NCBI RefSeq assembly: GCF_053078305.1
Contig: NZ_CP166879.1
DNA: 64,000 nucleotides
Strand: one strand, 5' to 3'
This document shows, in pieces, positions 46,663 to 47,342 of this stretch (position 1 is the stretch's first letter; each line of letters opens with the position of its first letter). The notes under the pieces are model-generated. The model saw only the letters and a list, made by a program, of their open reading frames with translations, was not told the origin of the DNA and searched no databases. The position numbers and the translations under genes are program-made.

Positions 46663-47342
46663 TTAATTTTCCGAAGCAAATAACAGAGCATCCTCCAGAG
46701 CGGCCAAAGGATCTGCCTCCGGCTTATCCTCATCCTCGCCCCAGCAGAGCATGGCGTCCTTCAGTGCAACATTCATCCCCTGTGCCCCGAAAACCGCTTT
46801 CACGATCTGTGCATTACGGATATCCCCGCGCTCATCACCCAGCGGGGATACCCTGTCGAACTCCATCCACATCATCGCCTCGCTCGCACTCAGGCTGTGG
46901 CGCAGTTCGGATAAGGTGCGCCCCAGACGGAGCGCAAGTCGCATCAGAAAGCGAATTTCCGGGCGGGCTACTTTTTTCTGGCCGACTCTGCATCAGCGAT
47001 CAGTTCCAGTGCCTGACGCAGCAAGCGGGCATGTACCGGACCATAGACGGCCAGCACCTGCTCACGGTCGTCCGGAGTGAACACCCGCTGCAGGTCCGTA
47101 TCACACAGGACATCGCAGAACAGCGTCACATCCGCTTCCAGGTTACGGCGGGTTTTCGCCACCACCGACAGGGTATCGTCATCCTCTCCATCACCATTGA
47201 GCACGTCCTGCCACAGATACCAGGCCTCTGCCGAAGGCTCCCGCAGCACCACGCTGACATTACCCCATTCCGGCACCTTCACCGTTTTATGACGAAACCC
47301 TGACAGTCTGGCCAGCGCCAGCGTTTTCAGATCCTTTTTCAT
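46663..47342 (-). CDS. tail assembly chaperone G-T fusion via programmed -1 frameshift
   Basis: Heptamer AAAAAAG (mRNA, plus coords 46977-46971) before the G stop; the -1 frame continues KKVARPEIRFLMRLALRLGRTL... to 46663. Confidence 0.7.
46968..47342 (-). CDS. G: tail assembly chaperone G
   Basis: ORF 46968..47390; start at MKKDLKTLALARL; ends ...SARKK-stop across slippery A_AAA_AAG. Confidence 0.8.
   Translation of the reverse strand: MKKDLKTLALARLSGFRHKTVKVPEWGNVSVVLREPSAEAWYLWQDVLNGDGEDDDTLSVVAKTRRNLEADVTLFCDVLCDTDLQRVFTPDDREQVLAVYGPVHARLLRQALELIADAESARKK

What the first reader, a model, noticed from the sequence alone, without database searches (positions are those of the whole stretch)
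46960..46985. Programmed -1 frameshift site joining tail chaperones G and T
G terminates immediately after a slippery heptamer A_AAA_AAG. The -1 frame is open from the slip site and continues for about 100 codons to 46663, giving the conserved G/GT arrangement. The ATG-initiated T ORF in the track is probably not translated independently.
Basis: partly seen in the sequence, partly recalled or inferred. Interest (0 to 1): 0.35.

Follow-up and report, generated by a model that had tools for sequence, protein, structure and literature searches.

The report
Known phage tail-chaperone G/GT frameshift site
This is the well-known programmed -1 ribosomal frameshift that lets a lambda/HK97-type prophage of E. 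coli make a small amount of a fused tail-assembly chaperone (GT) alongside the short form (G); this exact sequence has already been measured to shift at about 7% in a published reporter assay, so the finding is correct but ordinary.

Summary
On the minus strand, gene G (47342..46968, 124 aa, Pfam Phage_TAC_1, the HK97 gp13 family) ends ...AGA AAA AAG TAG. The heptamer A_AAA_AAG (46977..46971) is in register and the stop follows directly. The -1 frame opens 5 codons before the slip and runs 102 codons to TAA 46665..46663, encoding a Phage_tail_T domain. The predicted GT fusion is 226 aa.

The pair lies between the major tail gene and the tape-measure gene. A slippery motif sits at the same aligned position in most homologues sampled, from E. 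coli, Burkholderia and Moraxella phages. HK97 and Bcep176 records annotate the -1 shift.

A 75-nt cassette identical to window 46997..46923 gave 7% ± 0.79 -1 frameshifting in an E. coli GST-MBP reporter (Antonov et al. 2013, PMC3711429, Table S2).

The claim that T is not made on its own is supported indirectly:
- The T ATG has the weakest Shine-Dalgarno complement among nine gene starts tested in the head-tail module.
- Residues upstream of the Met are partly conserved.
- The Met is Phe in the Moraxella homologues.

Independent T translation is not excluded.

Verdict: already known, low interest. RefSeq annotation still lists G and T as separate genes in the copies inspected.

The parts
46968..47342 (-). 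Gene G: tail assembly chaperone, 124 aa, product of normal (zero-frame) translation
   Evidence: ORF and translation. Pfam PF06222 Phage_TAC_1, E 1.6e-61, full length. phrog_344 tail assembly chaperone. PDB 2OB9 'Tail assembly chaperone', E 1.2e-45. Good SD (AAGGGGA, -8.4 kcal/mol).
46971..46977 (-). Slippery heptamer A_AAA_AAG, in register with the G frame (codons AAA AAG are the last two sense codons of G)
   Evidence: Read directly. It is the only AAAAAAG in the window with a long ORF upstream, an immediate stop and a long -1 extension. The same motif or G_GGA_AAG / A_AAA_AAC sits at the aligned position in most homologues. An identical 75-nt cassette gave 7% -1 frameshifting.
46968..46970 (-). 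Zero-frame stop codon TAG of G, directly 3' of the heptamer
   Evidence: Adjacency of the stop is not conserved in homologues, where the stop lies 2 to 13 codons after the start of the slip site.
46663..46971 (-). -1 frame extension (T part of GT): 102 codons VARPEIRFLMRLAL...ASEN plus stop TAA 46665..46663. The predicted GT fusion is 226 aa.
   Evidence: Translation of the -1 frame. Pfam PF06223 Phage_tail_T, E 7e-20. phrog_337 matches from residue 4 of the extension, upstream of the ATG. phrog_14766 (224 positions) covers G and T in one profile. Alignment with 8 homologues.
46942..46944 (-). ATG that public annotation uses as the start of an independent 93-aa 'T' ORF
   Evidence: RefSeq and GenBank annotate T as a separate CDS. 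It has the weakest anti-SD complement of the nine head-tail module gene starts tested (-3.5 kcal/mol, 12-nt spacer, against -5.8 to -12.5). The Met is replaced by Phe in Moraxella homologues.
46923..46997 (-). 75-nt stretch identical to the published reporter cassette (Antonov et al. 2013, Table S2, Phage_TAC fs-gene 15618692)
   Evidence: Exact match, 0 mismatches. Cassette text and the 7% ± 0.79 efficiency.
46940..46965 (-). Weak predicted hairpin starting 5 nt after the heptamer and partly covering the T ATG. It is a possible minor stimulator and is not conserved.
   Evidence: strand folding gives z about -2.0 to -2.2 for the window. No consistent counterpart appears in the enterobacterial or Burkholderia homologues.
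47357..48073 (-). Major tail protein gene with C-terminal Ig-like domain (upstream neighbour)
   Evidence: phrog_158 major tail protein, E 4e-118. Pfam Ig_3, Phage_tail_2. RefSeq gives a 717-nt 'major tail subunit'. The start with SD AGGAGG was seen.
42880..46122 (-). Tape measure protein gene (downstream partner of the chaperones)
   Evidence: PF06120 Phage_HK97_TLTM, E 3.6e-88. TMP_3. Tape_meas_lam_C. phrog_339.

Best explanation
This is the G/GT tail-assembly-chaperone recoding site of an HK97/lambda-type siphovirus prophage of E. coli.

Most ribosomes translate G (124 aa) and stop at TAG. A minority, roughly 5-10%, slip one base backwards on A_AAA_AAG. The tRNA-Lys re-pairs from AAG to AAA, and the P-site Lys tRNA re-pairs from AAA to AAA. 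These ribosomes read GTA next and continue for 102 codons, giving a 226-aa GT fusion with the junction ...SARKK-VARPEIRFLMRL...

By analogy with lambda, many G molecules and a few GT molecules coat the tape-measure protein through the G part. The T part recruits the major tail protein so that the tube polymerises to the measured length. Neither protein stays in the virion.

Shown: the sequence anatomy, the family membership, the synteny, the presence of a slip motif in most homologues, and (from the literature) -1 frameshifting at about 7% on an identical cassette.

Inferred: the tandem-slippage details, the ratio in a phage context, and the chaperone roles of G and GT in this particular phage.
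For: - Anatomy: searches show the in-register heptamer, the immediate stop and the 102-codon -1 ORF.
- Families: PF06222 for G and PF06223 for the -1 extension. phrog_14766 spans both. HK97-type tape measure and major tail genes flank the pair. PDB 2OB9 matches G.
- Homologues: HK97 (60% identity) carries an annotated '-1 frameshift' CDS join, and Bcep176 has gp69/gp69'.
- Slip motif at the same aligned position: A_AAA_AAG in phi467, Bcep176 and phiE125; G_GGA_AAG in mEp390; A_AAA_AAC in Moraxella Mcat9 and Mcat6.
- Experiment in the literature: the identical 75-nt cassette gave 7% ± 0.79 -1 frameshifting in E. coli, and a G_GGA_AAG relative gave 6%.
- Mechanism of lambda G/GT and the role of tRNA-Lys: PMC5009743 and PMC3296357.
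- Weak SD at the T ATG.
- Partial conservation upstream of the Met, and Met replaced by Phe in Moraxella.
Against: - No direct protein evidence exists for this phage. No GT band or junction peptide was found in the literature I could search.
- The reporter used a short cassette out of its phage context.
- The ATG/Met at 46944 is conserved in 7 of 9 sampled homologues, so some independent or re-initiated T cannot be excluded.
- No conserved stimulatory RNA structure or upstream SD-like element was found. This fits low efficiency but adds no support.
- One Klebsiella homologue has no canonical heptamer (GCA_AAG_TAA, only 7 nt of overlap) and HK97 has CGG_GAA_AAG, so the family is not uniform.
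- This prophage copy may be defective because its portal gene is split. If so, the site may not currently be used for virion production.
Confidence: 0.9

Rival explanations
1. T is a separate gene translated from its own ATG (46944), as RefSeq/PGAP and most GenBank records annotate it. Translation could start by weak direct initiation or by re-initiation of ribosomes that terminate at the G stop 24 nt upstream. On this view the heptamer contributes little.
For: Public annotation lists two CDSs. The Met is conserved in the 7 enterobacterial and Burkholderia homologues sampled. The G stop lies only 24 nt upstream of the ATG. A Klebsiella relative has an ATG 2 nt after the stop and no canonical heptamer.
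Against: The anti-SD complement is the weakest of the nine head-tail module starts tested (-3.5 kcal/mol at a 12-nt spacing). Residues encoded upstream of the ATG (P..RFL) are partly conserved, and phrog_337 aligns from residue 4 of the extension. The Met is Phe in Moraxella homologues, and Mcat6 has no ATG near the N-terminus. -1 frameshifting was measured on the identical cassette, and the Phage_TAC cluster is not among those the authors list as showing internal initiation. In lambda it is GT, not free T, that links the tape measure to the tail tube protein.
Confidence: 0.08
2. The GT fusion arises from transcriptional slippage of RNA polymerase on the A run, giving mRNAs with one extra A, rather than from ribosomal slippage.
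For: The GST-MBP reporter cannot tell the two routes apart. The relative phi467 has an A8 run at the site, a length at which RNA polymerase slippage becomes noticeable (text on poly-A runs).
Against: The run here is only six A residues, AGAAAAAAG. According to the review text, transcriptional realignment is described for runs of about 8 or more. Homologues with G_GGA_AAG (three A residues) sit at the same position, and one gave a similar 6%. The motif is kept in X_XXY_YYZ register, which matters only for ribosomes.
Confidence: 0.03
3. The heptamer is a chance lysine-rich C-terminus, and the G/T overlap is an ordinary gene junction with no recoding.
For: AAAAAAG occurs 28 times in the window.
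Against: The configuration is unique among those 28 copies. The position is conserved across homologues at 31-65% T-region identity to the window in three host genera. Frameshifting has been measured.
Confidence: 0.01

Closest known systems
Bacteriophage HK97 gp13 / gp14 (tail assembly chaperone and its -1 frameshift extension)
   Same: The G-T region is about 60% identical at protein level, in two frames. The Pfam families and the gene order are the same: major tail, G, GT, moron slot, tape measure. The RefSeq record annotates gp14 as 'translated due to a -1 frameshift'. The G part matches the solved chaperone structure 2OB9. Fusion length is 224 aa against 226 aa.
   Different: The slip site in HK97 is CGG_GAA_AAG, followed by six more codons before the stop, rather than A_AAA_AAG directly before the stop. 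The moron after T is a different gene: HK97 gp15 against a 137-aa lipoprotein here.
Bacteriophage lambda G / GT (Levin, Hendrix & Casjens 1993; Xu, Hendrix & Duda 2004, 2013, 2014, as summarised in PMC5009743 and PMC3296357)
   Same: The logic is the same: a -1 slip on a heptamer ending in AAG near the end of G, decoded by tRNA-Lys(UUU). Efficiency is low (about 4% in lambda, 7% here). The position is between the major tail and tape-measure genes. The T part belongs to the same Pfam family, PF06223.
   Different: The heptamer is G_GGA_AAG in lambda and A_AAA_AAG here. The G part is not in lambda's G family; it belongs to PF06222, the HK97 type.
E. coli dnaX tau/gamma frameshift site
   Same: The slippery heptamer A_AAA_AAG is identical and the tRNA-Lys slippage chemistry is the same.
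   Different: dnaX has an upstream SD-like element and a strong downstream hairpin and shifts at about 50%. No such conserved stimulators were found here, and the measured efficiency is about 7%. In dnaX the shift shortens the product; here it lengthens it.
GeneTack 'Phage_TAC' programmed-frameshift cluster 862991913 (Antonov et al. 2013, PMC3711429)
   Same: The tested insert for fs-gene 15618692 is identical over all 75 nt to window 46997..46923. This window holds a copy of that very site.
   Different: Nothing at the site itself. The only difference is the genomic copy and its neighbours, namely the lipoprotein moron downstream.

Membership tests
Conserved G/GT tail-assembly-chaperone -1 frameshift of long-tailed dsDNA phages (Xu, Hendrix & Duda 2004) | Two overlapping ORFs located between the major tail protein gene and the tape-measure gene | tested here: met
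   The order on the minus strand is major tail 48073..47357, G 47342..46968, T extension to 46663, tape measure 46122..42880. A 137-aa moron sits between T and the tape measure, as in HK97.
Conserved G/GT tail-assembly-chaperone -1 frameshift of long-tailed dsDNA phages (Xu, Hendrix & Duda 2004) | Slippery sequence in register with the upstream ORF, near its 3' end, inside the overlap with the open downstream frame | tested here: met
   A_AAA_AAG at 46977..46971 forms the last two sense codons of G. The -1 frame is open from 5 codons upstream.
Conserved G/GT tail-assembly-chaperone -1 frameshift of long-tailed dsDNA phages (Xu, Hendrix & Duda 2004) | The downstream ORF lies in the -1 frame and lacks a convincing translation start of its own | tested here: inconclusive
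   The -1 frame is confirmed. An ATG exists 9 codons after the slip, but it has the weakest anti-SD complement of 9 head-tail module starts. The Met is not conserved in Moraxella homologues. Independent initiation is not excluded.
Conserved G/GT tail-assembly-chaperone -1 frameshift of long-tailed dsDNA phages (Xu, Hendrix & Duda 2004) | The arrangement and a slip site are conserved in divergent relatives | tested here: met
   Of 8 homologue types in E. coli, Klebsiella, Burkholderia and Moraxella phages, 6 have a canonical in-register heptamer at the aligned position. HK97 has a near-canonical one and one Klebsiella phage has none.
Conserved G/GT tail-assembly-chaperone -1 frameshift of long-tailed dsDNA phages (Xu, Hendrix & Duda 2004) | The frameshift product is actually made, at a low fixed ratio to G | not testable with these tools
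The literature reports 7% ± 0.79 in an E. coli GST-MBP reporter for a cassette identical to window 46997..46923. No measurement in a phage context was found.
Conserved G/GT tail-assembly-chaperone -1 frameshift of long-tailed dsDNA phages (Xu, Hendrix & Duda 2004) | G and GT are needed for tail assembly but absent from virions | not testable with these tools
   This is known for lambda. It is inferred here by homology only.
Pfam PF06222 Phage_TAC_1 (HK97 gp13-type chaperone) | Full-length profile match above the gathering score | tested here: met
   206.1 bits against a cut-off of 25; residues 1-124 match profile positions 1-124 of 124. PDB 2OB9, E 1.2e-45.
Pfam PF06223 Phage_tail_T (lambda T-type domain) | Profile match above the gathering score in the -1 frame extension | tested here: met
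   71.7 bits against a cut-off of 25.9; residues 28-97 of the extension match profile positions 1-70 of 73.
dnaX-type stimulated A_AAA_AAG frameshift cassette | Upstream SD-like element about 10 nt 5' of the heptamer and a stable hairpin 5-6 nt 3' of it | tested here: not met
   I saw no SD-like element on reading the upstream sequence GCAGAGTCGGCC. Only a weak A-U-rich hairpin lies 5 nt downstream. The fold z-score is about -2 and the hairpin is not conserved in enterobacterial or Burkholderia homologues.

The most novel reading that the evidence does not exclude
The site may be a three-output junction rather than a two-output one. The UAG placed directly after A_AAA_AAG would act as the only stimulator (a 'shifty stop'), making the G:GT ratio sensitive to RF1 activity and to the modification state of tRNA-Lys. 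In addition, ribosomes that terminate there would re-initiate at the conserved ATG 24 nt downstream, which is partly sequestered in a weak hairpin, to give a small amount of free T with a role of its own. Nothing in my evidence excludes this, but nothing specifically supports it. The adjacency of the stop is not conserved in relatives.
Probability: 0.1. Interest if true: 0.3.

Novelty: already known. Interest (0 to 1): 0.1.

Why it matters
Scientifically it adds little. G/GT frameshifting is a textbook feature of long-tailed phages, and this exact cassette has been assayed.

Its practical value is for annotation. The same 75-nt site is at least 99% identical in the best match of 1183 of 1250 matching records, from 1244 of 5426 complete E. 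coli genomes, with up to 7 copies per genome. These include Shiga-toxin-converting phages. In every RefSeq copy listed in the search output, it is annotated as two independent genes ('phage tail assembly chaperone' and 'phage tail assembly protein T') rather than as a slippage-joined GT CDS. The 226-aa GT protein is therefore missing from those annotations.

Because the slip depends on tRNA-Lys(UUU), host tRNA-thiolation state could tune tail assembly of these Stx-type prophages, as shown for lambda. This is an inference.

Tried and rejected
- I looked for a conserved downstream stimulatory RNA structure by folding 60-91 nt after the slip site in the window and in 8 homologues. The window gives z about -2, with a weak hairpin 5 nt downstream and a GC-rich hairpin 34 nt downstream that coincides with the conserved 'ALRLGR' codons. 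The enterobacterial and Burkholderia homologues give z from -1.2 to +1.2. Only the Moraxella phages show strong nearby hairpins. I rejected this as a family-wide feature.
- I read the sequence upstream of the heptamer for a dnaX-like SD element and saw none.
- I could not open Xu et al. 2004 directly because it is not held. I relied on reviews and citing papers instead.
- I tried to learn whether the reporter showed internal initiation for this cassette. Supplementary Figure S5 is an image and is not readable. The main text's list of clusters with coupling omits Phage_TAC.
- Transcriptional slippage was considered and rejected because the A run is only six bases.
- tRNA scan of the window found none, which has no bearing on the finding.
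- I did not use the large protein or metagenome searches or structure prediction. The local family, phage and PDB searches already settled identity.

Full report
**What is in the sequence**

All features lie on the minus strand. Gene G starts at ATG 47342 behind a good Shine-Dalgarno sequence. [quoted passage not shown] The heptamer A_AAA_AAG occupies 46977..46971 in X_XXY_YYZ register with the G frame.

Translating the -1 frame shows a TGA five codons upstream of the slip. The frame is then open: CRVGQKK-VARPEIRFLMRLALRLGRTL...ASEN, ending at TAA 46665..46663. That is 102 sense codons after the slip, so the predicted fusion GT is 124 + 102 = 226 aa. The ATG that ORF callers use for a separate 93-aa 'T' is at 46944, nine codons after the slip.

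**Is it more than chance?**

AAAAAAG by itself is common: 28 copies in the window on both strands, against about 12 expected from shuffles. I scored each copy for zero-frame ORF length upstream, distance to the zero-frame stop, and -1 frame length downstream. Only 46971-46977 combines a long upstream ORF (138 open codons), an immediate stop and a 102-codon -1 extension. The slip has to happen inside a 22-nt overlap, so an in-register heptamer of this class there is very unlikely by chance.

**Identity of the genes**

- G matches Pfam PF06222 Phage_TAC_1 end to end (E 1.6e-61).
- G also matches the solved 'tail assembly chaperone' 2OB9 (E 1.2e-45).
- The -1 extension matches PF06223 Phage_tail_T (E 7e-20) and phrog_337 from its fourth residue, which is upstream of the ATG.
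- phrog_14766 is a single 224-position profile whose first half matches G and whose second half matches the extension. Fused GT proteins of this family are therefore already in databases.
- Upstream lies a major tail protein with an Ig-like C-terminal domain.
- Downstream lies an HK97-type tape-measure protein of 1080 aa.

The window is an E. coli lambdoid prophage. The region is 97-98% identical to long-tailed Stx-converting phages such as phage 2851, and 99.5% identical to the chromosome of strain 2012EL-2448.

**Relatives**

A tblastn search with the predicted fusion finds 229 phage records, nearly always as two pieces in two frames. I fetched eight divergent types and located the G stop, the -1 overlap and any in-register heptamers:

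| Homologue | Slip motif | Position or note |
|---|---|---|
| phi467 | A_AAA_AAG | two codons before the stop |
| mEp390 | G_GGA_AAG (lambda type) | three codons before the stop |
| Burkholderia Bcep176, phiE125 | A_AAA_AAG | 12-13 codons before the stop |
| Moraxella Mcat9, Mcat6 | A_AAA_AAC | unrelated G part |
| HK97 | CGG_GAA_AAG (near-canonical) | six more codons before the stop |
| Klebsiella phage 1 LV-2017 | GCA_AAG_TAA (no canonical heptamer) | 7-nt overlap |

The HK97 RefSeq record annotates the longer product as 'translated due to a -1 frameshift'. Bcep176 annotates gp69/gp69' as the lambda G and T equivalents.

**Experimental status**

Antonov et al. 2013 (PMC3711429) predicted a 'phage tail assembly chaperone' cluster of 41 genes similar to an HK97 protein. 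They tested two members in an E. coli GST-MBP reporter and reported 6% and 7% -1 frameshifting.

Their Supplementary Table S2 gives the inserts. The 7% ± 0.79 insert is GCTGATGCAGAGTCGGCCAGAAAAAAGTAGCCCGCCCGGAAATTCGCTTTCTGATGCGACTTGCGCTCCGTCTGG. It matches window 46997..46923 with no mismatch. The second insert carries G_GGA_AAG, like mEp390, and gave 6%.

**Does T have a life of its own?**

Evidence against independent translation:
- The T ATG has the weakest complement to the anti-Shine-Dalgarno sequence of nine gene starts in the head-tail module: -3.5 kcal/mol at a 12-nt spacing, against -5.8 to -12.5.
- The residues encoded between the slip and the ATG (P-x-x-[RKQ]-F-L) are partly conserved.
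- The Met itself is Phe in both Moraxella homologues, and Mcat6 has no ATG near the N-terminus of the T frame.
- The Phage_TAC cluster is not in the authors' list of clusters where internal initiation accompanied frameshifting. The figure itself could not be read, so this point is weak.

Evidence for independent translation:
- The Met is conserved in the seven enterobacterial and Burkholderia sequences.
- The G stop is only 24 nt upstream, so some re-initiation is conceivable.

I rate 'T is mainly or only made as GT' as likely but not proven.

**Mechanism**

The heptamer is the same as in dnaX. E. coli's single tRNA-Lys (anticodon UUU with a modified U34) pairs better with AAA than with AAG, which favours the backward slip. 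I take this from established knowledge, and from the lambda work.

Unlike dnaX, I found no upstream SD-like element and no convincing conserved downstream structure:
- The window has a weak hairpin 5 nt after the heptamer, and fold z-scores are about -2.
- The enterobacterial and Burkholderia homologues show nothing consistent.

This fits the low measured efficiency. The stop directly after the heptamer could add some stimulation, but its adjacency is not conserved.

For function I rely on lambda. Many gpG and a few gpGT bind the tape measure. The T part recruits the major tail protein. The ratio matters, and neither protein is in the virion.

**Comparison and novelty**

The site is a member of the conserved G/GT recoding class. 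Its closest relative is HK97 gp13/gp14, and lambda G/GT is the mechanistic archetype. It is already known, down to the exact nucleotide sequence.

The one practical point concerns annotation. The 75-nt site is at least 99% identical in the best match of 1183 of 1250 matching E. coli records. These come from 1244 of 5426 complete genomes, with up to 7 copies each. Every RefSeq copy listed in the search output is annotated as two independent CDSs.

**Side observations**

- A low-GC lipoprotein moron sits between T and the tape measure, in the slot where HK97 carries gp15.
- The portal gene is split by a one-base difference in a G run relative to phage 2851. Its downstream part carries a 54-aa repeat of 3.7 copies.
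- A terminator-like hairpin precedes the major tail gene.

Noticed in passing
window 46186..46599 (minus strand): A 137-aa predicted lipoprotein gene is inserted between T and the tape-measure gene. It has the signal peptide MKKFMLLIFSVSFFLTGC with a lipobox, matches phrog_6823 (function unknown) and gives a weak PEGA-domain hit. GC is 0.375-0.47 against 0.56-0.64 in the flanks. It is absent from most relatives; phage 2851 has only a 48-nt T-to-TMP gap. Only 4 phage records hold homologues, at about 69% identity, among them Salmonella phage epsilon34 gene 15 and Escherichia phages Gally and vB_EcoP-720R6. It occupies the slot where HK97 carries the gp15 moron, so it is a candidate moron, perhaps for superinfection exclusion..
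   Followed up: partly
window 49606..52190 (minus strand); junction at about 50826..50846: The portal gene is split into a 454-aa Phage_portal ORF (52190..50826) and a 407-aa ORF (50829..49606) that overlap by ATGA. Phage 2851 has a single ORF of about 860 aa, with GGGGGG where the window has GGGGG. RefSeq flags the near-identical copy in strain 2012EL-2448 as a 'frameshifted' pseudogene. The junction reads CTG AAA AAA TGA, with the downstream ATG in the -1 frame behind a GGGGGA SD-like element. The split could therefore be prophage decay, translational coupling or another slip site (G_AAA_AAA)..
   Followed up: partly
window 50060..50664: A tandem repeat of period 162 nt with 3.7 copies and 95% matches encodes a 54-aa repeat (DVRPMLEQMVKEAVSHIPVPRDGRDYDPEVLQKAVNDAVANIPQPADGKSITPD) in the C-terminal extension of the portal region. 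Function is unknown..
   Followed up: no
window 48096..48110 (minus strand): A terminator-like GC hairpin, CCCGCCGCGTGCGGG followed by TTTTTT, lies just upstream of the major tail protein start (ATG 48073, SD AGGAGG). The HK97 record annotates putative terminators at the equivalent place..
   Followed up: no
L005 (Klebsiella phage 1 LV-2017) 1885..1910; L003 (HK97) 1861..1872: Not all family members have a canonical heptamer. The Klebsiella phage has GCA_AAG_TAA with only 7 nt of -1 overlap and an ATG 2 nt after the stop. That suggests either a single-tRNA slip on A_AAG next to the stop or termination-reinitiation. HK97 has CGG_GAA_AAG..
   Followed up: no
L009 1517..1576 and L010 1511..1570 (Moraxella phages Mcat9, Mcat6): Moraxella homologues pair an A_AAA_AAC heptamer with a strong hairpin starting 4-8 nt downstream, with z-scores of -5.2 and -2.8. 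The enterobacterial members lack this. The G part there is not detectably related to the window's G..
   Followed up: no
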